From NCBI GenBank assembly GCA_963727445.1, contig CAVSGI010000024.1, positions 1 to 45,083 of the forward strand: DNA of 45,083 bases. The letters run 5' to 3'. The position numbers and the translations under genes were made by a program. The notes under the pieces are model-generated. The model worked only from the letters and a program-made list of their open reading frames with translations. It did not search any database and was not told where the DNA came from. The stretch's first letter is position 1; every line of letters begins with the position of its first letter. The stretch is from an uncultured delta proteobacterium. Its GTDB lineage: Bacteria; Myxococcota_A; Polyangia; Polyangiales; B10-G4. Below are positions 1-41,820 of the stretch, piece by piece.

Positions 1-92
1 AGATGGGATGTAAGCGGCTGGCCGCCACTGACGTGGTAGCCGTAGCCCCACAACCGTAAACGCGGTCAAGAGCCGCAGAGTGGAGGCCAGCC

Positions 93-1123
93 GTGGAACA
101 CATTGGCATCGATGTTCACAAGAAGACAGGTCGGTCTGCATCCAGACGAGCGAGGGAGAGCTGCGGGAGCGGCGCGTGGCGACGACGCGCGATGCGCTGG
201 CGAAGGTGTTCGCGGACCGCGCCCGGGGCGAAATCCTGATGGAGGCGTTCGACGGACAGCGAGTGGGTGGCGCGGTGGCCTCGAGGAGCTGGGCCATGAG
301 GTGATCGTGGCGGACCCGAACTTCGCGCCGATGTATGCCACGCGAAGCCGCAAGGTGAAGACGGACCGGCGCGATGCGCGGGCGCTCTGCGACGCCTGCC
401 GGCTCGGCGCGTACCGCCCAGCGCACCGCGCCTCGGACGCGGCCCGTCATCGGCGAGCGCAGGTCGCGGTGCGTGATGCGCTGGTGCGCACGCGAACGAA
501 GTACATCTCGCTCACCCGAGCGCTTGTGCGGCGCGAGGGCTTGCGCCACGAAGCGGCGGAGCGGCGACCTTCGCGAGGCGCATCGAGGAGCTGTCACTGC
601 CCGCCCACCTGGCGCTCGAGGTCGCGCCGCTGCTCACGATGCTCGAGCAGCTCACCATGCCGAAATCCGCGACGCCGACAAGCGCCTCGCCGAGCTCGCC
701 AAGGGCGACAAGTTCGTCGAACGCCTGTGCACCGTGCCGAGCATCGGGCCGGTGACGGCGGTGACCTTCGTCGCCGTGGTCGACCAAATCGGTCGCTTCC
801 ACAACGCCTCACAAGTGCGCGCCTACCTCGGCCTGGTGCCCCGCGAGCTGAGCTCTGGCGAAAAACGGATGCGGGGCCACATACGAAGCCGGCAATCGCC
901 GTCTCAGGTCGCTGCTCGTCGAAGCGGCCTGGGGATCTTGCGTCACAAACGACCGGAGACGAAGGCGCTACGCGACTGGACGGAGCGCATCGCCGCACGC
1001 CGCGGCAAGCGGATCGCGGCGGTGGCGCTGGCGCGCAAGCTCGCGGGGATCTTGTACGCGATGTGGCGAGACGGGACGCGCTTCGAGGCGACAGCGAGCC
1101 GTGAGGAGGCTGCTGCAGCCTGA
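93..1123 (+). CDS. IS110 DEDD recombinase/transposase (several frameshifts in this assembly)
   Basis: GGAGG RBS then GTG-EHIGIDVHKK. Motifs ILMEA, KTDRRDARAL, VPSIGPVTA, AYLGLVPRELSSG and AVALARKLAGILYAMWRDG are spread over ORFs 80-304, 103-1104 and 374-1123. Confidence 0.9.
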
Positions 1124-1164
1124 CCCGCAACCGACGATGACCCGCTCTTCGTGAAGGGAACCGA

Positions 1165-1300
1165 TTATGGTGGTCGAGCGCGATGTGCTGGCTGGCTGCT
1201 GTCGAACGCCGATGGATAGATGGCGCCGACCACCACCGAATCCCACCCTGCGCCGCGGCCTCGATGCCGCCCCAGTCGAGCGCGAACAGAAGGCTGAACA
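1165..1300 (+). ncRNA. Putative bridge RNA/seekRNA of the IS1111 element (boundaries approximate)
   Basis: Stem TGGTGGTCG (1168-1176)/CGACCACCA (1227-1235) encloses an internal loop with target-matching segments 1184-1193 and 1215-1219. Donor-matching segments 1240-1247 and 1286-1292 flank the stem CTCGA/TCGAG. Confidence 0.7.
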
Positions 1301-1409
1301 ACCCGTCACGTATGAGCGAAACGACGAACCCGAGCCGAGGCGAAGGAGACGTGCAACGACGTAGAACGAAAATCAGACAAACCTGTTGACCGGGGTCGCC
1401 GCTCACAGA

Positions 1410-1526
1410 AGCCATCACAAACGGCCTCCCTCCCCTCCGGCCGGGCTGGGAGTCGACAAATCATACCTTCTCGGAAACTCGGGCGTCCGGTGAAGGGGTT
1501 GGCTTCCGTGGAGGCTGGAAACCGGA
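1410..1526 (-). repeat. oriIS repeat copy 1 (tip interrupted by IS1111)
   Basis: Matches 5577-5695 and 9300-9418 apart from two 1-bp deletions. Confidence 0.95.
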
Positions 1527-1705
1527 GCTGCGCGAGGCGCTCGCCGTTGACGAGAACAATGCTGTCAGACGCTGTCGCCGCGAAGTCGCGCGCCTCCCGC
1601 GAGAACTTCGACGTCGTGATGAAGACGCCCTTCGTCGCGCGTCGACCCGCGAGCGCCCCGAAGAAGCCTTGAATCGCGGGGCGCCCTACGTGGTTGTCCT
1701 CGGCG
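1525..1705 (-). pseudogene. mrr: Internal 60-codon fragment of a second mrr allele
   Basis: AEDNHVGRPAIQGFFGALAGRRATKGVFITTSKFSREARDFAATASDSIVLVNGERLAQL is 58/60 aa identical to the Mrr at 2379-3314, with many synonymous differences. Confidence 0.9.
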
Positions 1706-1783
1706 AGGGTGAAATCCGGGGGCTGGAAGCACATGGTGGCCGTCACAGGCGTCGTTGTTGAGTAGCGCTCATCGACAGCACGT

Positions 1784-2152
1784 TCATTGCTGCCCTTCTT
1801 CCTGCTCTTCTAACAGTGCTCCACGGCGCTTCTCTTCGGCCAGTGCTTCACCGCGCGCGAGTTCTGCCGCTCGGTCTGCCGCTCGGTCACGAAGCGCTTG
1901 TCGCTCCTCCTCCGTCATGGCTTGAACCGCCGCCCATGCACGCTCTGCCTCCTCCTCTGCAGTTCCCCCGCCGGCGGCCTCTGTAGCGGCCTCAGCCCGC
2001 TCCTGGGGGGTAGGCTCGGGGGGTGGGACAACCACGAGAGGCGGCTCCGCCGTGGGTTCAGTACACCCGCAGGGGACAACCAGGAAGGTGACGATGAGCC
2101 CAACGGCCACCGCGAGGCTGATGCTGTGGTTAGGCTGGGCTCGGTCTCTCAT
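1784..2152 (-). CDS. Hypothetical membrane-anchored/lipoprotein, possibly 3'-truncated
   Basis: GGGGGAG RBS before ATG 2152; hydrophobic segment, Cys, Pro-rich linker, charged helical tail. Confidence 0.5.
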   Translation of the reverse strand: MRDRAQPNHSISLAVAVGLIVTFLVVPCGCTEPTAEPPLVVVPPPEPTPQERAEAATEAAGGGTAEEEAERAWAAVQAMTEEERQALRDRAADRAAELARGEALAEEKRRGALLEEQEEGQQ

Positions 2153-2219
2153 CGCTCCCCCTGTCTTGCGCACGCTCGCCCAGTGCGGGTTCATAGCGTG
2201 GGCCGGCTCGGTTTGCTTA

Positions 2220-2302
2220 GGAACCGTCCCGTCGCGGACGGCGGCAAAGTAGCCATCCAGGTCGAACTGCTTGGGGTTACCTTGAAAAATCCAAGTGGTC
2301 AT
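2220..2302 (-). pseudogene. N-terminal fragment of an EVE-like domain protein
   Basis: RBS GAGGGGG then MTTWIFQGNPKQFDLDGYF, resembling the W-I-F-Q-x-N-P start of EVE-like proteins; similarity ends after ~27 codons. Confidence 0.5.
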
Positions 2303-2378
2303 CGTTCACCCCCTCGTGCACCGTTCGAATCGGCACATGAACCCAAGGACTTGGGCTGGACCCAATGGTTAGAGGACG

Positions 2379-3314
2379 TCACGAGTCCTCGTCGAAGTAG
2401 TCGCTGTCGATCTTCACGACATTGTAGCTCTCGGCTCTACTCACCCCGACGCTGTACTCAATCATCAGCTGGGCTAGGCGCTCCCCATTGATGAGGACGA
2501 TGCTGTCCGATGCCGTCGAGGCGAAGTCTCGGGCCTCGCGTGAGAACTTCGATGTCGTGATGAACACGCCCTTCGTCGCTCGCCGCCCGGCCAGCGCACC
2601 GAAGAAACCCTGAATCGCCGGGCGACCGACATGGTTGTCCTCGGCGTAGCGCTTTGCTTGGACGTACACCTTCTCTAGGCCGAGTCGATCAAGCGAGACG
2701 ACGCCGTCAATACCGCCGTCCCCCGAACCCCCAGTACGGACGAGCGAGTTTCTTTGGGAGCCGTATCCCATCTTGTGGAGGACATCGAGAACGAGGTCCT
2801 CGAAGAAGGCCGGGCTGGCGTTGCGAATCAGGTCCAGAAGCTCTCCGCGTATGCGCTCTTGAAGCTCAAGGTGCGCCGCTCGCAGCCGCTCTTCGGGGGT
2901 CTGCGTCGCGTCGGCCGGTTCGACGGTTTCGTCAGCAACCTGATCATCGTCCTCGCCATCGTCGGCGAGCTTCGCCTTCACGGGTCGGAACGCCATCTGC
3001 TTGACCACCTCGGCCGGGATGCCTGCCGCATGGTCTGCTGCGAATGCTCGGCCCTGATCGGTGAGTTGCCAGTATCCGCGCTTCGGTGACGTGGACAGCC
3101 CCGCTCGTTTCAGACGGTCATGCGCCCACCCAATCCGATTCTTGTAGACCGGCTGTCGACGACTCGGCAGCTCTTCAGCCTTCTGCGCCTCCGTGAGGTT
3201 CATCGCCCGTGCCATTGCCTCGTGCGCGTCCGAAGACTTCTCAGGCTCCCGTCGCGACGCCAGATGCCTGAGCAACGGCTCGATGAACTGGTCGAAGGTG
3301 GGAACGGTCGACAT
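2379..3314 (-). CDS. mrr: Mrr type IV restriction endonuclease
   Basis: N-terminal Mrr_N-like region (PTFDQFIEPLL...YKNRIGWAHDRLKRAGL...RGYWQLT) and catalytic GDGGIDG...YVQAKRY...KGVFITTS; GGAGG RBS. Confidence 0.95.
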   Translation of the reverse strand: MSTVPTFDQFIEPLLRHLASRREPEKSSDAHEAMARAMNLTEAQKAEELPSRRQPVYKNRIGWAHDRLKRAGLSTSPKRGYWQLTDQGRAFAADHAAGIPAEVVKQMAFRPVKAKLADDGEDDDQVADETVEPADATQTPEERLRAAHLELQERIRGELLDLIRNASPAFFEDLVLDVLHKMGYGSQRNSLVRTGGSGDGGIDGVVSLDRLGLEKVYVQAKRYAEDNHVGRPAIQGFFGALAGRRATKGVFITTSKFSREARDFASTASDSIVLINGERLAQLMIEYSVGVSRAESYNVVKIDSDYFDEDS

Positions 3315-3396
3315 GGGGTGCCTCCGGGATGGCGAGCATACAGCGTCTCCGCAGCAGGCAGGGTGGCATCGTGGGTGGTAATCTCGGCCAAGATCA

Positions 3397-3665
3397 TGCT
3401 TCGCCCTTGCCTCATGCTTGCCGGTCTCTGGCTGATGGGATGTAGCGGTACCGACGGGCCAGTGCCTCCGCCGCTCGGTGGAGTCGGAGCGTCCTGTGCC
3501 GAAGATGGGGACTGCCTCGCCGGACTGGAGTGCTTCGCAGGACCAGAGGGGGCGCGCGCGTGGCCCGAGGGGTACTGCAGCCGAGGTTGCGCGCGGGATG
3601 TGGACTGTCCCGGCGAGGCGCGGTGCGGCTCAGAAGTCGCCTCTGGCTCTCTCACAGATGCGTAG
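3397..3665 (+). pseudogene. Truncated Cys-rich myxobacterial lipoprotein
   Basis: Lipobox LMGC, then VGASCAEDGDCLAGLEC...WPEGYCSRGCARDVDCPGEARC; runs into the 3' end of the opposite gene at ~3630. Confidence 0.55.
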
Positions 3666-4181
3666 CTGCTCCGGCGTCACAGAAACATGCGTCCGGTTCG
3701 TGCGCATCGCATCCAAGGTACAGCCACAATAGCCCGCCGCCCCGTCGCGGGAACCCTCACTTTGTGCACATCCATCCATGTAGGAGTGGACTTTGTAACT
3801 TGTCCAGGCGCCTCGGCTATGGGGCGTTCGGCCATTCCAGGGCGCCGTGCGACGTGACGCAGACCGAGCCCACTCCGCGCACCTGTCTATGTCACGGTGC
3901 CGGGGTCCGGGATCGGGTCTTCCTGCGCGCACTGCGCGGTGGAACTCGATTCTCCAGGCGTCCATCGTGCATGAACAGACGAGCATTGCGGCGCGCCGCG
4001 GTGTGCCATTCGACTCGGCCGCTTGTGCGCACGTTTCCAACCGACTGAAGATTGCCAGTGACGACATCCTTGCCGGTTGAAAGTAGTTCGGAAGGTCTGA
4101 GCGTACGGTGCCGGCCGTGCCCATCACTCCCACACTCGCGAGCAGGATTGAGACTCCGAAGCTTCGACGGCGCATCCACAT
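3630..4181 (-). CDS. Hypothetical secreted protein with two Cys-patterned repeats
   Basis: Signal-like N-terminus; repeats CAQ...VCSCTMDAWR...RC and CAQ...YCGCTLDAMR...IC. Confidence 0.6.
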   Translation of the reverse strand: MWMRRRSFGVSILLASVGVMGTAGTVRSDLPNYFQPARMSSLAIFSRLETCAQAAESNGTPRRAAMLVCSCTMDAWRIEFHRAVRAGRPDPGPRHRDIDRCAEWARSASRRTAPWNGRTPHSRGAWTSYKVHSYMDGCAQSEGSRDGAAGYCGCTLDAMRTNRTHVSVTPEQLRICERARGDF

Positions 4182-4423
4182 ACCAGGAAGAGAGTGTACA
4201 GGTTCTTTCGTACGTCATCCTGCCTCTCCGATCAGTGACCGTCGCTGCGACTCGGTATGGATCGCGAACTAGCGAACGGTGTTTCAGTCCTCCGTCGTGT
4301 ATGAGATCGACCCATCATGGGCAGTCGCCGGAGATGAAGAGGAGTAGCCTCGGAGCAGGGCGGCTGCTTTAATCTTTCTGGGTTCTCGCCGGCGCCAACC
4401 GCGACCGCTCGTGAACGACAGGG

Positions 4424-4936
4424 CTAACTCAGGGCTCGACAGGTGAACACGCCTAGTCCCACGGAGAGGCCTGCGAACGGCAGCCCATAGAACAACGCGC
4501 GCCCCCACTTCACGCGGTCATGCCAACCAGCGGGCTTCTCCCGCGGAATGCCACAGGCCTCGTCGATGTGAATGCTCAGCTCGTAGCGGCCTTTCGAGAG
4601 ACGCTCGACGCGTTTGATTTCATCCACAGCGCCCTTCAAGAGACGGCCGTAGTAGAGCCAGTCGATGAGGCCGATGCTAGTCCACACGATGAGCAGCGCG
4701 AGGAACGCCATCGCGATCCATCCGGCCGGCAGTGACGAGCCCTCGGTTCCGGCCTTGGTCGCCCAACCCATTACCGCGGCCAACGCGGCCAGCCCGCCAA
4801 GCGACTGGGTTCGCATCTTCACGATCAGTTCGTTGAAGTGGATCGCGACATCCTCGCATTTCGCCCAATAGAGGAAGTCCCGATCGGTATCGGTGGCAGG
4901 CCACCAATCGGACTCCCTGTCCCCCAAACGTGACAT
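4424..4936 (-). CDS. Hypothetical membrane protein (about 3 TM segments)
   Basis: 3' part of ORF 4424-5128; hydrophobic stretches LGGLAALAAVMGW, WIAMAFLALLIVW, LFYGLPFAGLSVGLGVF. Start codon is a best guess. Confidence 0.6.
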   Translation of the reverse strand: MSRLGDRESDWWPATDTDRDFLYWAKCEDVAIHFNELIVKMRTQSLGGLAALAAVMGWATKAGTEGSSLPAGWIAMAFLALLIVWTSIGLIDWLYYGRLLKGAVDEIKRVERLSKGRYELSIHIDEACGIPREKPAGWHDRVKWGRALFYGLPFAGLSVGLGVFTCRALS

Positions 4937-5148
4937 GCCGTGGAAGGTAGGCTCCCGCCCAGCTTCGAGAAAGAAAGTGGCCGAATGTCCAAAGGCGAAC
5001 CCCTTTGGACGCCTACGTCGCTGAACCGAGCCCTGGTCACCCCGCAGGGGTGACCAGCGTCGACCCCCGAAAGCACGCAGTGTCCTCGACCGGTGATGGT
5101 GCAGACGACGGTTGACGATAACTTCCACGCCCCGCGAGACTGGATGTT

Positions 5149-5478
5149 GTGGATGGTCTCGTCGCGCTGATCGTATGGGGAATAGTCGGCCTCATTAGTC
5201 TCGGCATCTACTTCCTGCCAACCATTGTTGCCATGAGCAATAGCCATCAGAGTGGCGGGGGCATCTTCATCCTCAACTTGCTGCTCGGATGGTCTCTCCT
5301 CGGTTGGGTCATCGCGCTCGTCTGGTCCTTCACCAACGTGGAGCCCAGCACGACAATCATCCATCACGCGCCCCAGCAGCCGGCTCATCAGGGACAGTGC
5401 CTTTCGTGCGGAAGTTGGAACGTCGCGCGGCTACCCGACGGGACGCGCGTGTGCGGCAACTGCGGCCAACGCGGTTAG
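5149..5478 (+). CDS. Superinfection immunity protein (T4 Imm-like) with C-terminal Zn ribbon
   Basis: IYFLPTIVA...H...IFILNLLLGWSLLGWVIALVWS is the Imm_superinfect signature; CLSC...CGNC tail. Confidence 0.85.
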   Translation: MDGLVALIVWGIVGLISLGIYFLPTIVAMSNSHQSGGGIFILNLLLGWSLLGWVIALVWSFTNVEPSTTIIHHAPQQPAHQGQCLSCGSWNVARLPDGTRVCGNCGQRG

Positions 5479-5569
5479 GTGACAGAGAAGGGAACCTGTC
5501 TGTGGCCATCATTCGGTCGACACGTCGCTGCATGTCATCATCGCCGACTACACTGCTGATGGTCTTTGC

Positions 5570-5695
5570 GGCTGATAGCCATCACAAACGGCCTCCGCTC
5601 CCCTCCGGCCGGGCTGGGAGTCGACAGAATCATACCTTCTCGGAAACTCGGGCGTCCGGTGAAGGGGTTGGCTTCCGTGGAGGCTGGAAACCGGA
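5570..5695 (-). repeat. oriIS repeat copy 2 (126 bp, no transposase)
   Basis: Identical by eye to 9293-9418. Confidence 0.95.
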
Positions 5696-5971
5696 GCTTC
5701 GTCCGCGCGCGTCGCTTCGCTCGATCACGACGCGGCCGAGCGCGGGACGTGCCGGACGCCTCCTTACCGAGCCGCCACTTCCAGTAGCTCAGCGTCCGCG
5801 CGTTGATTCCCAGCTCCGCGCTGAACTCCGCGGCCGTCAGCTCGCTGTCGTTCCACCGCTCCACCCGCTTCGACCATTCTTCTCGTGACGTCCTCATCGG
5901 CGCCTCCTTTCGAGGGCCGATCGATCACACGATGGCGGTCAGGCTGCTGGACGGGTCCGTCGAACGGATAC
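5696..5971 (-). mobile_element. Truncated IS66-family left end with partial tnpA (orfA, start 5897)
   Basis: Terminal GTATCCGTTCGACGGACC resembles IS66 IRs; ORF MRTSREEWSKRVERWNDSELTAAEFSAELGINARTLSYWKWRL is TnpA-like HTH; cut at the ori repeat. Confidence 0.8.
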
Positions 5972-6264
5972 CAGCTTTGCGTCCTACCAGTGCTACTCCT
6001 GGGCGTCCGCTCTCTCGCTGAACCTGCTCGTCATCGGGCGCCAACTACCAGCGAGCTGACCTGCTCGACATCTTCGTCTTCTCACGGACCACGTCGCGGG
6101 AGTCGTCCGTCCGCAGATGCCTCCTCGCGTCTCCATTGCACGTCGGCGCGAAGAAATTCCCCGCTCGCCTGCTTCTCGCCCCGCGGCCAACGCCGTACAC
6201 TCGGCGAATGCCGATGCGATGCGAATTCACGTCCGCGAAAACCGCGTTTCCGGACGGCCTCTAG

Positions 6265-8381
6265 CTAGGAGACCGTGGAGCCCGGCTCGCTGTCGGCGCG
6301 AGACCGGCACGAGCTGCCCGCTGCGGTCCTCGGCCATGAGCAGCATGCCCTGGCTCTCGAGGCCGACCATCTTCCGCGGGGCGAGGTTGGTGACCACGAT
6401 GACCTTCTTGCCGACGAGGTCCTCGGGCGTCATGTGCTCGGCCACGCCGGCGAGGATCTGCCGCGTCTCGAAGCCGAGGTCGACCTCGCAGCGGATGAGC
6501 TTCTTCGACTTCTTCACGCGCTCGGCGACCTTCACCTGACCGACGCGCAGATCGAGCTTGGCGAAGTCGTCGTAGACGATGGTGTCCTTCACCGGGGTGT
6601 AGGGCGGCCGCCGCCGGCCGCCGCCTCGCCGCCGCCGCAGCGCGCCTCGAGCTTCGCGCGCTGGGCCTCGATCCGGCGTCCTCGATCTTGCGGACGAGGA
6701 TCTCCGGCTCGCCGAGCGCGTGCCCCGCCTCGAGCAGCGGCGCTCCCGCCTCGTCCCAGCCGAAGGTCCGCCGCTCGCCGCCCGGCGTCGCTCGAGCGCA
6801 CGCCGTCGAGCTCGCAGGATTGCGCGCATCTTCTTCGCGGTGAACGGCAGGAACGGGCTCCGCGAGGATCGACATCGCCGCGCACGAGCTGGAGGCTCAC
6901 GTGGATGCGTGTTGCCGCAGCGCTCTCGAGGTCGGTCTTCTTGCGGTCGCCCACGGCTCGCTGTCGTTGAAGTACTTGTTGCCGAGCCGGCCGAGGCTCA
7001 TCAGCTCGTTGATCGCGTCGCGCATCCGGTACTCGTCGATCAGCGCGCCGATGCGCTCCGGGAAGCGCCTTCAGTGCCTCGAGCGTCGCGCGGTCGGCCT
7101 CGCTCGGGTCCTTCAGCGTCAGGCACCGTGCCGTCGAGCTGCTTGACGCAGAACTGCACGCGTGCGGTTGAAGAAGTTGCCGACGTTGTCCGCGAGCTCG
7201 TTGTTGATGTGGGCCTGGAAGTCGCTCCAGGTGAAGTCGGCGTCCTGCGTCTCCGGCAGCGATGCGCAGGAGCGAGTAGCGCAGGTAGTCGGGCGGGAAC
7301 GCCTCGAGCGCCTCGCCGAGCCACACCGCCCAGCCGCGGCTGGTCGAGAGCTTCTCGCCCTCGAGGTTGAGGAACTCGTTGGCCGGGCACGTTCTCGGGC
7401 AGCACGTAGTCGCCGTGCTCCATCAGCATCGCGGGGAAGCTGATGGTGTGGAAGACGATGTTGTCCTTGCCGATGAAGTGGACGAGGCGGGTGTCGTCGG
7501 ACTGCCAGTAGGTCTTCCAGCGCTCGGCGTCGCCGACGCTTCTGCGCCCACTCGCGCGTCGCCGAGATGTAGCCGATCGGCGCGTCGAACCAGACGTAGA
7601 GGACCTTGCCCTCCGGATCGATGCCCGCCTTCTCCGCGACGTCCTCGGGAACGGGCACGCCCCACGGGATGTCGCGGGTCATCGCGCGGTCGCCGAGGCC
7701 GAGCGTGAACCACGACTCTGACCTGCCCGAGGACGTTCGGCTTCCAGTCCTTCTTCGTCGCGATCCACTTCTCGAGTTCGGGCTGCAGCTTGCCGAGCGG
7801 CAGATACCAGTGCGTCATATCGCGCGGCTCGGGCGTGGCGTCGCTCAGGGTGCTTCGCGGATCGATCAGCTCCGCCGGGCTCAGCGAGCGTCCCGCACTT
7901 CTCGCACTGATCGCCGTAGGCGTTCGGGTTCCCGCAGTGCGGGCACGTCCCCATCACGAAGCGGTCGGCGAGGAACATCTTCGCCTGCGGGTCGTAGAGC
8001 TGCGTCTCCGTCTTGATGACAAACGTGCCCTTCTTCGCGAGCGCCCGGAAGAACGCGCGGCTCGTCTCGCGGTGCACCGTGCTCGAGGTGCGCCCGTAGT
8101 GGTCGAAGCTCATCCCGAACGGCGGCGAAGTCCGTCTGCGCCATCGCGTGGTAGCGGTCGACGATCTCCTGCGGCGTGACGCCGTCGGCCATCGCGCGCT
8201 TCACGATGGCGGCGCCGTGCTCGTCCGAGCCGCAGATGTAGACGACGTCGTCGCCCTTCAGGCGGTGGTAGCGGACGAACACGTCGGCGGGCAGGTACGC
8301 GCCAGCCAGGTGCCCGAGGTGGATCGGCCCGTTCGCGTAGGGCAACGCGCTCGTGGCAAGGATTCGCCGGTAATCCGTCAT
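6265..8381 (-). CDS. metG: Methionyl-tRNA synthetase, full length but with many frameshifts (errors or pseudogene)
   Basis: [58 protein letters not shown]-terminal tRNA-binding domain [10 protein letters not shown]...[17 protein letters not shown]. Confidence 0.92.
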
Positions 8382-8483
8382 GGGCGGGAGAGCCTAGCTC
8401 CGTCCCTACGGATTGGCCGTCGGATCGGCGAACGCCTCGGTCCACGGCGCGCCACCGAGCCCACGCGAGCGACTGGCCAGTGA

Positions 8484-8710
8484 CGGAGGGCGCCCATACC
8501 GTTTTGGCGAGGTGTTCGAGGAAGGCGAAAGGCGGTGGCTCGCGGGCGCCGCGCTGGGCTTGATCGTGGTCGTCGCCGCGACGGTCGCCTTCGGCGCCCT
8601 GGCGGCGCCGCGCGCCCAAGTACCGTCCTGGATCGGCTTCGTGGCGACCTCGGCGCTCGTCTTGGCGGGCGCAGGCCGGGCGCTTGTCTGGGCCCATGCG
8701 GCGCTCCGAT
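8484..8710 (+). pseudogene. Fragment of a membrane-protein gene divergent from metG (start uncertain)
   Basis: Two TM-like stretches in ORF 8413-8733, then an abrupt switch to HNH sequence. Confidence 0.4.
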
Positions 8711-8716
8711 GTCGGA

Positions 8717-8890
8717 GTGCATCGCTGCGATAACCGAGTCAGCGTGAATCCCGACCACCTGCACGTCGGCACTCACCGCCAAAACATGCGCGACATGGTA
8801 CGCCGAGGACGCTCGCGAGCCGGAACGCGGCCGGCGGAAGCAATAGCACAGGTACGCCAGCGTCTCGGCGACCCCACCGAGGTGCCATGA
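8717..8890 (+). pseudogene. HNH endonuclease fragment
   Basis: VHRCDNRVSVNPDHLHVGTHRQNMRDMVRRGR matches the phage-type H-x-C-D-N...NP-x-HL...N motif; no N-terminus. Confidence 0.8.
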
Positions 8891-8894
8891 CTCT

Positions 8895-9292
8895 TCAGGA
8901 GCCGCGTAGAGTGACAACGTTCGCGTTTCCGAGGCCGCAGGTGTCGAGCAGGCCCGTGAACTCTTCTTGAGATATTCTCGCAAGATCGTTGAAGTCATCT
9001 TGAACTGAGGAGGCATTTATCAAGAAGCGCGCAGCGTCCTCCAGCACCAATGCGCGTTTGCTATCGATGAGCGCGCCGAGGTGGTACTGGGCCGCCCGAT
9101 GAATTCGTCTCAGATCATCTTCTTGTACTTTTGCATCAAGCTCGCGGCACACCACTTCTGCAATGCGTTCGGCGTCGCAGGTGCGACAAGGAACAAGTAC
9201 TGACAAGATACTGCAAGATGCCCCCACCGAGATGTCCACCTGGACGAACCGGTATCCTAGTTCACCGCACATCTTGTGTATCGAGGATCGCT
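8895..9292 (-). pseudogene. Lower-GC 3' gene fragment abutting oriIS copy 3
   Basis: Open frame running from the ori tip to TGA 8895; visibly more AT-rich than the host genes. Confidence 0.45.
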
Positions 9293-9418
9293 GGCTGATA
9301 GCCATCACAAACGGCCTCCGCTCCCCTCCGGCCGGGCTGGGAGTCGACAGAATCATACCTTCTCGGAAACTCGGGCGTCCGGTGAAGGGGTTGGCTTCCG
9401 TGGAGGCTGGAAACCGGA
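9293..9418 (-). repeat. oriIS repeat copy 3 (parental, 88 bp downstream of the transposase stop)
   Basis: Position 3' of the transposase gene, ori-like tip, identity to copies 1 and 2. Confidence 0.9.
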
Positions 9419-9506
9419 CGGTGCATGAAAGGCATGATGGCTCGATCTTCGCCCGCGCGTCGAGCCGCGGACGCAGCGCGACGTCGACAGGCTCGGGGGA
9501 GCTGCC

Positions 9507-10970
9507 TCAGGCGACGTGAAAGAAGAGGTCGTCGTCGTTGGGCGGTGCGCGTGCCGGGGCGGGCACGACTGGCTCTGCCGGCAGGTCGAGGCTCTCGAGG
9601 ATGCGGCGGATGGTGGCCGGTCTCAGGATCGAGGCGACAAAGCGCATGCGGGCGTGGCACTTCGGGCATTCGAGCGAGTCGATGTCGAGGCCGCGTCGCA
9701 TGAGCTCGGCCCAGCTCGGGTTGTGACGCTTGCGTTTGGACGTGCTGTGCTTCGGGTCCTTGCCTGGCTCGGAGGGACGCCCGTACGCGACGACCCGCCT
9801 GCGCAGCTTCGCGTTGGCCGCGAAGACGCCGTGGTAGAGCAGGAGATTCTTCTGGGGGCGTGGGACGAGGGCAGCGAGGCGCCCGAGGAGCTCGGTCGGC
9901 TCGAAGCTCAGGTGCGTGGTGCCGTCATCGTAGGGGGTCTTGAGGGTGAGCAGCACGCGATCGCCGCGGAGCTCGATGCGCGACTCCGAAACGGGGGGCC
10001 GGAGCAGGTAGCGGCAGATGCGCTCGAGACGTGGGCGGTTCTTGCCGCGCACGGCGGTGTTGGCGTGCAGGTCGAAGCCGTCCTGGCGAGCGCGGCGGCG
10101 GCCGAGGACTTTCGGTGACGTCTTGGGCGGAGCGGTCCGGATGCGGCGCGTGGAGAGAAGTGCCCGCGGACCGGTGAGCGCGACCTGCTGGATGGCGGCA
10201 GCGCCGAGGCGCTCGTGAAGGGTGGGATCGACGTAGTCCGTTCCGTCGTCGCCCTCCCGCCAGACGCCGCGGCGGATCAAGAGCCGCCGCAGACGCGCGA
10301 CGAGGGTGGTGAGCAGGGCCGCGACCTCCTCGTCGGTCGGGGGCGGCAGACGGTGAAAGCGGACGGAACCATCGGACGCCTCGAGGAACACCCCATCCGG
10401 GATCAGCGTGTGGAAGTGCGGATTGAGATTGAGCGCGCCGCCGAAGCGCTGGATGACTGTGACGCTGCCGGCCTGTCCCCCTGGATGACCACGCCTCTTC
10501 GCGCGGTCCCGGAGGAAGCCGAAGATCGCCCGCGTGAAGACGGCGAGGACGGCGCGACCGAGCTCGTGGTCGAAGGCGAGACGATAGCGGAGCTCGAAGG
10601 GGAGGCTGAGCACCCATTGCCGCATGCGGACCGGTGGTAGGACCTCGTCGACCAGGTGCGCGGCCTGCGCGGACATGCGTCGGCCGCCGCAGGAAGGGCA
10701 GAAGCCGCGGCCCTTGCAGCTGAACGCGACGAGGCGGTCCGTGCCGCACGCGTCGCAGCGAAAGCGCGCGAAGCCATGAGCGAGGACGCCGCACTCGAGA
10801 AAGCGCCGGAGCTCAGCCTCGACGAAGGCCGGGACGCCGACGCCGTCGCGGTCCGTGGTCCGGGTCTCCGCCAGGAACGTCTCGAGGTGCTCGCGGACCG
10901 TCTGGTGCAAGGCGGAGCGCTCGCGGTCGCGGCGGACGTAGCTTCGCGACGTCGTCGGGGAGAGCGGCAC
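9507..10970 (-). CDS. IS91/ISCR HUH transposase
   Basis: Zn-binding CG..HGFAR.RCDAC...FSCKGRGFCPSCG, RQWVLSLP, QRFGGALNLNPHFH (HUH), ERICRYLLRPP (single Tyr as in ISCR), YHGVFAAN. Confidence 0.95.
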   Translation of the reverse strand: MPLSPTTSRSYVRRDRERSALHQTVREHLETFLAETRTTDRDGVGVPAFVEAELRRFLECGVLAHGFARFRCDACGTDRLVAFSCKGRGFCPSCGGRRMSAQAAHLVDEVLPPVRMRQWVLSLPFELRYRLAFDHELGRAVLAVFTRAIFGFLRDRAKRRGHPGGQAGSVTVIQRFGGALNLNPHFHTLIPDGVFLEASDGSVRFHRLPPPTDEEVAALLTTLVARLRRLLIRRGVWREGDDGTDYVDPTLHERLGAAAIQQVALTGPRALLSTRRIRTAPPKTSPKVLGRRRARQDGFDLHANTAVRGKNRPRLERICRYLLRPPVSESRIELRGDRVLLTLKTPYDDGTTHLSFEPTELLGRLAALVPRPQKNLLLYHGVFAANAKLRRRVVAYGRPSEPGKDPKHSTSKRKRHNPSWAELMRRGLDIDSLECPKCHARMRFVASILRPATIRRILESLDLPAEPVVPAPARAPPNDDDLFFHVA

Positions 10971-11119
10971 GCGCGGAGCTCGGCAACCCCCGTGCCCGGA
11001 TTGGGGTCAGTCATTATCGTGGGTTACGCCTCCGAATCGGCGGATGCGCGGCGGCCCGCCGGCGGGCCGCCAGGCCTGATGGCCTCGCCTTTACCGCTCG
11101 AGAGCGGCCGCTAAGAAGC

Positions 11120-12289
11120 CTAGAGACCGACGCTCGCGAGCATGTCGCGGCGGACGGCCTCGTTCACCGCCAGGGCGAGGATCAGCGAGACGAGCAAGCC
11201 GATCGTGACCAGGACGAGGTCCTTGCCGAGGATGCGCAGGGTGCCGCGTACGTCGCGGCTCGAGGTGCCGCGAAGCGCCATCGCCAGCTCGCGTCCGCCG
11301 AGCAATCCGATGAAGACCCAGGTGGTGCTCATCGGGACCTTCGAGACCATCTTGAAGTAGTAGAGGATGCCGCCGAAGACGAGGTTGATCAGAGTGGCCG
11401 AGCGGAGATCGACGATCGAGGACTTCTCGTTCACGACCTCCTGCACCTTCTCGCCCCGCATGCGGAAGAGCACGCCGAGCCCCAGGAAGATCACACCGGC
11501 GAAGGTCACCATCTCGCCGAAGGACATGGAGCGCGGGAGGTACACGGCGATGTTCGCGGCGTCCTGCATGATCCACACGGACCACAAGAAGCCGCTGCTC
11601 AGCCACTGCGCCGGCAGCCAGAGCGGATGCGCCGCGCCGCGAAACCATCGTTCGAGCGCCTTCGCCGCGACCGCCCAGAGCACGATCGACAGCACGAAGG
11701 CGAGCAGGTAGCCGCTCAGGCTCTTGCCGAGGACGTCGCTCACGGAGCTGCCGGATGTGGCGAAGCTCGACAGGAGCAGGAAGGTCGTCGACACCGGCAT
11801 CTTCAGCCGCGTCAGGATCAACAGAAAGAGCGGCGCCGCGACTTGGAGGTAGCTGAAGCTCTCGGGCGTCGTCTCGAAGCCCTTCGACTTGAGGCGCTCG
11901 TAGCTGACGTCGCCGCCATAGTGCGCCCAGCTGTAGGCGACGGTGACGACGAAGATGCCGCCGATGAAGAGCCAGAGGATCCACCACGGGCGCTTTTCGT
12001 TCGCGGCGATGAAGGTGCCGATGGTCTGGATGCTGTCGTTGGCGACGGCCGAGTAGCCGGCGATGCCGAAGCCCAGCCAACGGGCGAGAAAGGCATCCTG
12101 GTAGACCACCCCGACCAGCAGGAAGAGCCCGCCGAGGAGGCCCAGGAACACCCTTTCCTCGACGGCGTAGGTGATGAAGAAGCGCGGAAGATTGGCCAGA
12201 CCGAAGCTCTGCTCGGCGCTCGCGCGCGCTTCTTCCGTCTCTCCCTTGGCCAAAGCGGACAGATTCTGGCGGCTTATCGGCGCCCGCAC
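11120..12289 (-). CDS. PiT (inorganic phosphate transporter)-like membrane protein
   Basis: Multi-TM; duplicated motifs ANDSIQTIGT / QDAANIA and PVSTT / PMSTT. Confidence 0.6.
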   Translation of the reverse strand: MRAPISRQNLSALAKGETEEARASAEQSFGLANLPRFFITYAVEERVFLGLLGGLFLLVGVVYQDAFLARWLGFGIAGYSAVANDSIQTIGTFIAANEKRPWWILWLFIGGIFVVTVAYSWAHYGGDVSYERLKSKGFETTPESFSYLQVAAPLFLLILTRLKMPVSTTFLLLSSFATSGSSVSDVLGKSLSGYLLAFVLSIVLWAVAAKALERWFRGAAHPLWLPAQWLSSGFLWSVWIMQDAANIAVYLPRSMSFGEMVTFAGVIFLGLGVLFRMRGEKVQEVVNEKSSIVDLRSATLINLVFGGILYYFKMVSKVPMSTTWVFIGLLGGRELAMALRGTSSRDVRGTLRILGKDLVLVTIGLLVSLILALAVNEAVRRDMLASVGL

Positions 12290-12405: not shown

Positions 12406-14411
12406 ATGCGAGCTCTCCCGCTTTTTCTAGTTCTTTCGCTCTTGGTAGCCGCGTGTACGGACACTGGCTCCCCACGACGCACCGGCGACGGTGGTACCGA
12501 CGACGCGGACGCTTCGCCCCCGATCGCAGACGCTGATGGTGACGGTATCAGCGACTTCGACGAAGGCCGGGCGGACAACACCGACACCGACGGGGACGGA
12601 ACCCCCGACTACCTCGACGACGACTCGGATGGGGACGGCATCTTCGACCTCGACGAGGCCGGCGACTCCAATCCCGCGACGCCTCCCGAGGACGCCGACA
12701 TGGATGGCATTCCGAACTTCCGCGACCTCGACTCCGATGGAAACGGGATCGACGATGCGGTCGAAGGCATGACCGACACCGATGGTGATGGGATCCCGGA
12801 CTTCCGCGATCTCGACAACGACGCCGACCGCGTCGACGACGTGACGGAGCTGGGCGATCCGCCCGACCCCACCGCAGACCTCGATGGCGACGGCCTCCCC
12901 AACTGGCTCGATCCCGACAGCGACGGCGACTTCATCCTCGACGGTGAAGAGCGCCCGCGTACCGGCGCCGCCGTCGACACCGATGGCGACGGCACGCCCG
13001 ACTGGATGGACGACGACTCCGATGGCGACGGATGGACCGACGCCGAGGAGGCGGGCGACATGGACATCCGCACCGCGGCCATCGACACCGACGGGGACGG
13101 GATCCCGAACTTCCGCGACGGTGACTCCGACGGCGACGGCCTGTCCGACGCAGACGAGCGGACCTACGGCACCGACCCCACCCTCGCCGACACCGATGGC
13201 GACGGCGTGAGCGACCTGGTCGAGGTGACCGCCTGCGCGGGCGACGCGAGCTGCGCCATGGACGCGACCGACCCGACCTCGAGCCCGCGCGCGCGCGGCG
13301 ACTTCGTCTTCGCCGAGCCGTACATGATGCCGCCCATGCCGACGCACGACACGCTCGATTTCGCGACGGATATTCGGGTGGCAGACGTGTATTTCCTCGT
13401 GGATACGACCGGCTCGATGGGCAGCTCGATCACCAACGTTCGCACCAGCCTGTCGACGCCGACCACCGGGATCATCGACCAGGTGCGCGCCATGATTCCG
13501 GACGTGTATTTCGGCGTCGGCGACTTCCGCGACTACGCCGACGCCTGGCTCTACCGGAACCTCACCGACATGACGGCGGATGCCGCGACGGCGCAGGCTG
13601 GCGTGAACATGCTCGACGCAGGCGGTGGCGGCGACTACGCCGAGGGTGACGTGCCCGCGCTGGCCGCGGTCGCGTCCGGCATGGCCGTGAGCGCGAGCCC
13701 GGCATCCCGGCGCGCAGTGGCTGCCCGGCGGGCACCTTCGGCTACCCGTGCTTCCGGTCGAGCGCCGTGCCTATCGTGGTGCTCATCACCGATGCGCCGT
13801 TCCACAACGGTCGCGGCGGGACCAACCCCTACAGCGGCTACCTCGACTACGCGACGATGCTCCCCGACGTCACGGCTGCGCGCATCCGGGTCATCGGGGT
13901 CGCGGTCGGCACGGGCGGCCAGACCGACCTGAACGCCATCGCGATGGACTCGGGCGCCGTCGACGGCGCCGGCGCACCGCTCGTCAGCCTCGCCTCGGGC
14001 GGCACGGTCGACGCGGCCGTCGTCACGCAGATCCAATCGCTCGCCAACGCGACCCGCTTCGACATCAACGTCGTCTTCACCGACGATACGAGCGACGCGG
14101 TCGACACCTGGGCGGCCTTCGTCGACCACATCGAGGCCAACGAGACGGGCGACCCGGCGCGCGGCTGCGCGGCGCGAACGGCCGAGGACACGGACGGCGA
14201 CGGCTACGCCGACACGTTCCGCGACGTGGAAGGCGGCACGCGCGTCTGCTTCGACATCTACGTCAAGCAGAACGACACCGTCATGCCCACGGCCGACCCG
14301 CAGCTCTTCCGAGCGACCCTCACCGTTCTCGGCGATGGCTTCACGCCCCTCGACGAGCGCGACGTCTTCTTCCTGGTGCCGCCCGAGGTCGTGGTCGGCG
14401 GTCCGGACTGA
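12406..14411 (+). CDS. TSP3-repeat + vWA lipoprotein, CglD-like (frameshift ~13700)
   Basis: Lipobox VAAC, many DxDxDGxxD repeats, MIDAS-like FLVDTTGSM, IVVLITDAPFH; joins ORFs 12403-13932 and 13767-14411. Confidence 0.8.

Positions 14412-23979: not shown

Positions 23980-25791
<1,812 letters not shown>

Positions 25792-40379: not shown

Positions 40380-41820
<1,441 letters not shown>

What the first reader, a model, noticed from the sequence alone, without database searches (positions are those of the whole stretch)
1410..11113. Tandem 'oriIS + cargo' array downstream of an ISCR/IS91-like transposase
Seen: three direct copies of one 126-bp sequence about 4.2 and 3.7 kb apart. Copy 3 is the ori end of the HUH transposon. 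Copies 1 and 2 stop at the same inner base (..AAACCGGA) and join unrelated DNA in mid-gene (mrr fragment, IS66 tnpA) exactly where the transposase side would be. Around copy 2 the two flanks do not rejoin into one gene, so it is not a simple MITE insertion. Known: IS91/ISCR elements mobilise DNA inward from oriIS, and ori works in trans. Inference: non-autonomous ori-headed cargo modules stacked next to their helper transposase, i.e. a rolling-circle gene-capture platform accumulating defence genes and gene fragments, reminiscent of Helitron capture.
Basis: partly seen in the sequence, partly recalled or inferred. Interest (0 to 1): 0.85.

Follow-up and report, generated by a model that had tools for sequence, protein, structure and literature searches.

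The report
Transposon-built array of captured DNA fragments
A rolling-circle jumping gene appears to copy a short, fixed piece of its own end and stack kilobase fragments of other DNA between the copies right behind itself, a layout that recurs in several unrelated bacteria and may be an undescribed route of gene capture.

Summary
The repeat is real: a 125-bp oriIS end of an ISCR-like HUH transposase, three co-oriented copies here and about 50 in the genome. Transposase-less copies start at one fixed inner base, 33 of 38 after a C, and do not rejoin their flanks (9 of 9 homology checks; frame concordance 8 of 43, near random). The same layout occurs downstream of related transposases in other phyla. 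New here: the inner edge sits at a second copy of each element's own ori box (top-scoring position in 10 of 13 lineages), so it looks programmed. Orphans match the adjacent parent; in two genomes the only orphan lies 2-10 kb behind it; in one 90-kb array the youngest copies are nearest the transposase. Best reading: a polarised, transposase-built ori-plus-cargo array of mid-gene fragments. Defence enrichment is not supported. An IS110 targets the ori tip, its guides co-varying. Mobility, strand and read support are untested. The scan noted similar orphan arrays on other DNA before.

The parts
9507..10970 (-). ISCR-like HUH (Y2_Tnp + Zn_Tnp_IS91) transposase, 487 aa, intact frame
   Evidence: Pfam; invariant H185-x-H187, Y321, Y379 in alignment; best NCBIfam NF052416 ISCR clade Ia 333 bits, below its cut-off of 925
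9294..9418 (-). Copy 3: parent 125-bp ori unit (inner edge at 9418, oriIS tip at 9294; ori box at 9304-9314)
   Evidence: tip in register with ISCR1 oriIS 22-mer
9419..9432 (-). Second, degenerate copy of the ori box (9422-9432) plus 3-nt spacer, just outside the inner edge; present only in transposase-linked copies
5696..9293 (.). Cargo module A (3.6 kb): unknown ORF(s), full-length but heavily frameshifted long-type metG (about 6227-8381, minus), 5' half of IS66 tnpA (5696-5897) cut at the inner edge of copy 2
   Evidence: a second, short-type metG lies on C14; window metG is 83% identical to that of another family with 26 gap openings
5571..5695 (-). Copy 2: orphan 125-bp ori unit, identical to the parent
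1527..5570 (.). Cargo module B (4.0 kb, 63% GC against 69%): superinfection-immunity-type gene (5149-5478), complete mrr (2379-3314), unknown ORFs, 180-bp mrr fragment (1527-1705) cut at the inner edge of copy 1
1410..1526 (-). Copy 1: orphan ori unit with two 1-nt deletions, tip interrupted by IS110
1..1409 (+). IS110-family element inserted at the CT of the ori tip; candidate guide segments in its right non-coding end (about 1180-1220); the contig ends exactly at its other end
10971..11072 (-). Left region of the element with a GC hairpin (11050-11071); no sharp shared terIS among the three full copies

Best explanation
The ISCR-like HUH transposase builds a polarised array directly behind its own oriIS. 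It binds two copies of an element-specific box, one at the ori tip and one 60-160 nt inward (125 nt here). Rolling-circle copying from the tip stops at the inner box, which defines a fixed-size ori unit that leaves the inner box behind. That unit becomes joined to other DNA at a short C-ending target, and a kilobase fragment, cut without regard to gene borders, ends up between the parent's tip and the new unit. Repetition gives transposase-ori-[cargo-ori]n with the newest module nearest the transposase. Because orphans lack the inner box, later rounds from an orphan ori should run on into its inward cargo, so modules can move again. SHOWN by sequence: unit, fixed edge, second box at the edge, C|T junction, side and orientation bias, local identity, non-rejoining flanks, mid-gene cargo. 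INFERRED: transposase binding to both boxes, the strand used, the order of joining, foreign origin of the cargo. Two routes fit: (a) mini-circle inserts into transient incoming DNA, read-through makes an ori-plus-cargo circle, which returns at the parent's ori by the transposase or by homology (my odds about 55%); (b) concerted in-cis duplication and capture (about 45%).
For: Inner edge: 33 of 38 orphans follow C, 22 of 38 follow GC, background 0.33 and 0.11, p about 1e-11; same C|T rule in G031, G009, G061. Second box: the element's own tip box scores top of its 3' region at the observed edge in 10 of 13 lineages, offset 0 to +2 from the conserved C|TA, Fisher p 3e-9; own versus other lineages permutation p 0.0004. 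Side: among 68 distinct related elements with 304 kb downstream and 313 kb upstream searched, short co-oriented ori copies lie downstream in 10 loci and upstream in 3, those 3 at contig starts; in G000 all 7 orphans on C24, C9 and C5 are downstream and co-oriented. Local identity: C24 2 of 2 and C9 2 of 3 orphans best match the adjacent parent among 4 parents. G062 (5.8 Mb) and G036 hold one full-length orphan each, 2.1 and 9.6 kb behind the parent, modules cut in mid-gene, no near-identical donor copy in the genome. G061: 15 copies over 90 kb, 8 proximal at 96-100%, 7 distal at 78-85%, rho -0.73. Not clean: 5 of 5 G000 copies with a homologous uninterrupted site, G031, G062, G036 by truncated Pfam domains, G061 by homologs, with the missing half absent from the genome; frame concordance 8 of 43 against 0.49-0.60 contiguous and 0.15-0.18 random. 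Precedent for internal termination and read-through in IS801 (PMC3189936).
Against: No reads, circles or activity seen. The box is degenerate: in a blind per-element shuffle test 0 of 55 elements had a significant upstream match alone; box length and the 0 to +2 window were chosen after seeing the data, and some lineages are related. The inner cut lies about 7 nt closer to its box than the tip cut does to its box, which simple ori/ter chemistry does not explain. The G061 gradient is a step between subfamilies, not a smooth decline; C9 runs 100, 74, 100% and G031 is flat. Older G000 clusters have mixed orientation (25 same, 10 opposite neighbours). All genomes used are assemblies of uneven quality; G031 has redundant contigs with different module order. 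Only 10 of 68 related elements show a downstream orphan, and ISCR1 shows none as best match (2050 of 2065 plasmid records cover the whole ori region).
Confidence: 0.66

Rival explanations
1. Local hopping plus deletion: ori minis made by ordinary premature termination insert cleanly a few kb behind the parent, and later tip-mediated deletions or recombination between copies remove the other gene halves. The 'cargo' is resident island or chromosomal DNA, and the array is transposon debris, not a capture device.
For: IS801 makes 229-679-nt ori-end minis at high frequency (PMC3189936). One tip on C12 is joined to the last 44 nt of an IS110 whose remainder is gone, which looks like a deletion. No donor copy of the cargo exists elsewhere, as expected if it never moved. 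Clusters are full of other IS pieces. Four earlier scan notes read similar arrays this way.
Against: Needs a second event at nearly every copy, even at copies 100% identical to the parent and in genomes with a single orphan; no clean insertion found in 9 checks; does not by itself explain strict co-orientation; window metG is a second copy closest to another family; adjacent modules carry unrelated fragments.
Confidence: 0.22
2. Opposite polarity: the transposase nicks the top strand at the inner edge, which is then the real start, and the tip is the terminator; units are ori unit plus downstream cargo, Helitron-like (5'-TC start after a target base).
For: Inner junctions read C|T, in register with the conserved C|TA of the tip; the target's last bases mimic the tip's last bases, as for HUH targets 5' of the nick.
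Against: Full elements have a sharp tip and a ragged left end; the duplicated C11/C21 module shares its inner junction and differs outside the tip; IS91 moves as the bottom strand from oriIS (PMC13181058); G061 tips are followed by GA in 14 of 19, a target motif beside the ori as in IS91.
Confidence: 0.07
3. Assembly artefact: contigs were joined through a dispersed 125-bp repeat or mix strains.
For: Window metG and the IS110 are rich in indels; the contig ends at a repeat; redundant rearranged contigs in G031; reads could not be examined.
Against: Misjoining through a repeat cannot create a fixed inner edge that omits the upstream box and follows a C|T rule; the layout recurs in many independent assemblies and phyla; a 125-bp repeat is short for an assembly of 27 contigs. 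It could still affect module order in single cases.
Confidence: 0.05

Closest known systems
ISCR elements (ISCR1, ISCR2, ISCR28), IS91 family
   Same: HUH transposase with oriIS downstream; tip aligns with the ISCR1 22-mer; sharp ori end and ragged other end; one-ended carriage of inward DNA; capture between two oriIS ('sandwich') is relayed for ISCR28 in PMC12772301 (passages; the primary paper was not seen); circle rescue by recombination is described for ISCR1 in PMC13023784 (passages).
   Different: Here the second ori is a fixed-size unit cut at an internal box, not a variably truncated element; many units form a one-sided array behind the transposase; cargo is cut in mid-gene at both ends. 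The protein is below the NCBIfam cut-offs for ISCR clade Ia and IS91.
IS801 miniature derivatives (229, 360, 679 nt; PMC3189936)
   Same: Non-autonomous ori-end fragments with fixed inner ends, made by premature termination (abstract and passages).
   Different: IS801 minis end at a ter-like tetranucleotide and were trapped as insertions in sacB; these units end at a repeat of the ori box, were never found as clean insertions, and pile up beside the parent.
Integrons and CRISPR arrays (recalled, as analogies)
   Same: Repeat-delimited array next to its enzyme gene, co-oriented, apparently growing at the proximal end.
   Different: HUH enzyme, no integron integrase or Cas hit among the ORFs scanned in window 1-13.9 kb; spacers are kilobases long and ignore gene borders; repeat is the transposon's own origin; no sign of a cassette promoter.
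Helitrons (recalled)
   Same: Rolling-circle HUH elements that collect gene fragments.
   Different: No helicase domain; capture lies outside the autonomous element, behind its ori.

Membership tests
IS91/ISCR family | HUH transposase with zinc finger and catalytic tyrosine | tested here: met
   PF04986 and PF14319 above cut-off; invariant HxH and Tyr
IS91/ISCR family | oriIS downstream of the transposase with conserved tip | tested here: met
   12 of 22 in register with the ISCR1 22-mer; sharp in 4 of 4 transposase-linked copies
IS91/ISCR family | No terminal inverted repeats, no target duplication | tested here: met
   flank tables
IS91/ISCR family | Defined terIS | tested here: inconclusive
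   three full copies differ at the left end; a GC hairpin is shared
IS91 (canonical IS91/IS801/IS1294) | Tetranucleotide target beside oriIS | tested here: not met
   bases after 18 intact tips are mixed; only a C or purine-C preference on the other side; the related G061 element does show GA in 14 of 19
ISCR clade Ia (NCBIfam NF052416) | Score above curated cut-off | tested here: not met
   333 bits against 925
IS91/ISCR family | Rolling-circle intermediates and transposition | not testable with these tools
   no reads or assay available
MITE | Terminal inverted repeats and target duplication | tested here: not met
   ends are unlike; only an 8-nt imperfect internal pairing without covariation; no duplication
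MITE / IS801-type mini | Clean insertion into a contiguous target | tested here: not met
   0 of 9 homology checks; frame concordance 8 of 43
IS801-type mini | Intact ori end plus fixed internal end | tested here: met
Integron / CALIN | Whole-gene cassettes | tested here: not met
   modules begin or end in mid-gene
Integron / CALIN | attC sites | not tested
   no attC model was run; Rfam scan of 1-11500 gave 0 matches; the repeat is the transposon's own end
Helitron | Rep-helicase fusion | tested here: not met
   487-aa protein with Y2_Tnp and zinc finger only

The most novel reading that the evidence does not exclude
A branch of ISCR-like HUH transposases has a dedicated acquisition reaction: using two binding boxes it duplicates its terminal ori unit in cis while splicing a kilobase piece of foreign DNA between the copies, so that arrays of up to about 90 kb grow at the transposase-proximal end, in the manner of CRISPR adaptation or integron cassette insertion but gene-blind and HUH-driven; RNA-guided IS110 elements have specialised on the nick site of these arrays.
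Probability: 0.3. Interest if true: 0.9.

Novelty: new variant of a known kind. Interest (0 to 1): 0.68.

Why it matters
How ISCR elements capture genes is an open question: the papers read here still describe their rolling-circle movement as presumed (PMC13393415). This finding names concrete, mutable parts: two boxes, a fixed unit length and a C|T junction, which make the capture step testable in one construct. If arrays grow behind the transposase, environmental bacteria of several phyla keep ordered archives of acquired DNA made by a single small enzyme, a possible source of new gene fusions and of the variable regions seen behind ISCR origins. If the debris rival is right, the second box still explains where ISCR rolling circles stop.

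Tried and rejected
Read support: the sequencing-run look-up gave no answer, so junction-spanning reads and circles remain unchecked. Exact and degenerate 24-nt patterns of this repeat found nothing in metagenome or genome collections, and the repeat had no match in 40 relatives: it is lineage-specific. First frame test was underpowered and was redone with a Markov model; the regular expression failed and was fixed. One apparently clean G061 insertion was tested and rejected. Folding: the unit folds no better than shuffles (z -0.67 and 0.18) and the consensus fold has no covariation support. No sigma-70 promoter or terminator in the unit; no Rfam match. Synteny with the one same-genus genome was too poor to place the insertion site. 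Blind per-element box test was negative (0 of 55). In one search one lineage (L256) failed to parse and was scored 0, and L272 was dropped because its anchor was not found. ISCR1 minis were not seen in plasmids, but only the best place per record is shown. The lone full copy on C13 could not be classed. Two reviews (PMC1489542, PMC2944590) are not held and may already describe ori sub-motifs or ori-only fragments; the ISCR28 primary paper was not seen. Supplements were not read.
Full report
Observation. The window is the whole of contig C24 of a 9.47-Mb, 69% GC assembly in 27 contigs, 86% complete; a genome that the tool places in the same order is titled Myxococcales (G009 = L114), so the host is probably a myxobacterium-type organism (inference). 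Three direct copies lie at 1410-1526, 5571-5695 and 9294-9418. Copy 3 follows an intact ISCR-like HUH transposase (9507-10970, minus) and its last 22 nt align in register with the ISCR1 oriIS printed in PMC13023784. Copies 1 and 2 end at the same inner base in mid-gene, in an mrr fragment and an IS66 tnpA fragment. Copy 1 is cut at its tip by an IS110 that fills 1-1409.

Genome-wide picture. There are 51 BLAST hits and 49 HMM hits at E<0.002, 43 of them in 8 clusters covering 118 kb. Four are linked to a transposase or its remains (C24, C9, C10, C5). Of 38 orphans with an inner edge, 33 follow a C and 22 follow GC, whereas parents read CCG there. After 18 intact tips the bases are mixed. Where a homologous uninterrupted site exists, tips too were joined after GC in 2 of 3 cases. 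On C24, C9 and C5 all 7 orphans lie downstream of the parent and point the same way; C24 2 of 2 and C9 2 of 3 best match their own neighbour among the four parents. Older clusters on C11, C12, C20, C21 have no ISCR-like parent and mixed orientation.

Not clean insertions. Five G000 copies with a homologous site all fail to rejoin. Truncated Pfam domains at the edge with unrelated DNA beyond the tip were seen in G031, G062 and G036. One G061 copy whose flanks were in the same frame was followed up: the 364-aa gene is cut near residue 136 and its first part is absent from that genome. Across four genomes the best reading frames of the two flanks agree in 8 of 43 copies (2/12, 3/11, 3/16, 0/4), against 0.49-0.60 for contiguous DNA and 0.15-0.18 for random pairs. 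A few clean cases are not excluded. One module did move as a unit: 1065 nt of cargo plus the inner junction are shared by C11 and C21 at 99.5%, with different DNA beyond the tip.

Cargo. Module A holds a second, long-type metG, 83% identical to that of another family and broken by many indels; whether these are decay or consensus errors is open. Module B holds a complete mrr and a superinfection-immunity-type gene. Across arrays the named cargo is mixed: PPK2, GST, kinase, methylase and glycosyltransferase fragments, repeat proteins, a few toxin-antitoxin pairs, many IS pieces; 4 of 65 selected proteins hit PADLOC. In G062, G036 and G009 the cargo has no near-identical copy elsewhere in the genome, so it is not a replicative copy of the present chromosome.

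Other lineages. The 125-mer itself was not found in 40 relatives or in two collections, but related transposases (40-60% identity) have their own units. G031 has about ten co-oriented 160-nt copies on one contig, G009 five of 82 nt, G061 (Acidobacteriota) 15 of 92 nt over 90 kb. Among 68 distinct elements from 160 loci, with 304 kb downstream and 313 kb upstream, short ori copies were downstream and co-oriented in 10 loci and upstream in 3, all three at contig starts. In G062 and G036 the only full-length orphan in the genome lies 2.1 and 9.6 kb behind the parent. In G061 the 8 nearest copies are 96-100% and the 7 far ones 78-85% identical to the parent (rho -0.73); this is a step between subfamilies, and G031 and C9 show no gradient.

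The second box. In the parents, the bases just outside the inner edge repeat that element's own tip box, and the two change together between lineages. Scored over the whole 3' region, the box match is highest at the observed edge in 10 of 13 lineages, at 0 to +2 nt from the register of the conserved C|TA (Fisher p 3e-9); own tips fit better than other lineages' tips (p 0.0004). Caveats: parameters were set after seeing the data, some lineages are kin, and no single element is significant in a blind shuffle test (0 of 55). The inner box stays behind in the parent, so orphans carry an origin but not this site.

Mechanism. Known chemistry: IS91 moves as the bottom strand from oriIS and overshoots its terminator in 1-14% of events (PMC13181058, abstract and passages); IS801 also stops early and yields fixed ori-end minis (PMC3189936). 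I infer that the transposase binds both boxes, copies from the tip, stops at the inner box and joins the unit to a C-ending target. Either the mini first enters transient incoming DNA, picks up inward cargo by read-through and returns to the parent's ori, or duplication and capture happen in one step in cis. Single orphans right behind their parent and the lack of clean insertions favour a local process; they do not separate these routes. Local hopping followed by deletion remains the main rival (0.22), inverted polarity (0.07) and artefact (0.05) are minor.

Parasites of the unit. All 8 IS110 copies with an intact right end sit at the CT of an ori tip. Two IS110 variants target two tip variants, and both candidate guide segments in the right non-coding end change to match (5 and 3 copies). 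Other IS elements interrupt the middle of the unit in G000 and G031.

Relation to known systems and to print. It works like an ISCR element and the transposase belongs to that wider family, though below the curated cut-offs. Ori-end minis and capture between two origins are known. Nine full-text searches listed no paper on one-sided arrays of fixed-size ori units or on an internal ori-box repeat; I saw search listings for most and passages of PMC13181058, PMC3189936, PMC12772301, PMC13023784, PMC13393415 and PMC5737581. Subscription papers and two key reviews were not available, so absence from print is not established. Four earlier notes of this scan describe co-oriented orphan ori ends on other DNA and judged them known debris; I did not check their loci.

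Verdict. Observation confirmed; interpretation partly supported; new variant of a known kind; interest 0.68, with a 30% chance of a dedicated repeat-duplicating capture reaction that would merit 0.9.

Noticed in passing
window 1-1409; G000 C9, C11, C12, C21: IS110-family element inserted at the CT of the oriIS tip in 8 of 8 copies with an intact right end; two variants have candidate guide segments that co-vary with the two tip variants they occupy. An RNA-guided element specialised on another transposon's origin.
   Followed up: partly
G000 C11 7645-10110 (L106:7948-10250): A different IS91-family element, tyrosine recombinase plus Y2 transposase, sits inside one ori unit and splits it.
   Followed up: partly
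G000 C12 30766, C5 177559, C20 65697 and 105334; G031 several: The middle of the unit is a hot spot for other IS elements, with 10-nt (G000) or 6-nt (G031) duplications, some left as footprints.
   Followed up: no
window 6227-8381: Second, long-type metG with many frameshifts while neighbouring mrr and transposase are intact; a short-type metG lies on C14. Decay or local consensus error is unresolved.
   Followed up: partly
G061 C1 688917-689373 (L127:11400-12150): Directly behind the parent, a tandem duplicate of the 3' region and a unit joined tip-to-inner-edge with no cargo; indel-rich, so possibly a sequencing artefact.
   Followed up: no
G014 C13 (L052, L053): Four co-oriented 930-nt truncated-transposase-plus-ori copies with nearly the same inner edge, 3-9 kb apart: a longer version of the same layout.
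   Followed up: partly
G031 C5 versus C16: Redundant contigs hold the same modules in a different order, either strain-level shuffling at the repeats or assembly error.
   Followed up: no
G000 C11 6566-6585 and C21 about 1208-1225: The far end of the duplicated 1.07-kb module is a 16-nt ori tip in the opposite orientation, so the module has a tip at both ends.
   Followed up: partly
G000 C9 923590-924733, C9 915986-917148, C12 56216-56731, C21 11034-11557: A four-helix-bundle (23S rRNA IVP) gene with a low-complexity hexamer tract occurs in several copies; the C10 transposon carries its last 93 nt at the ragged left end.
   Followed up: partly
window 25292-25588 and 40823-41092; 12525-13223: Low-complexity 6-nt tandem tracts inside ORFs and TSP3-type repeats; look like ordinary coding repeats.
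   Followed up: no
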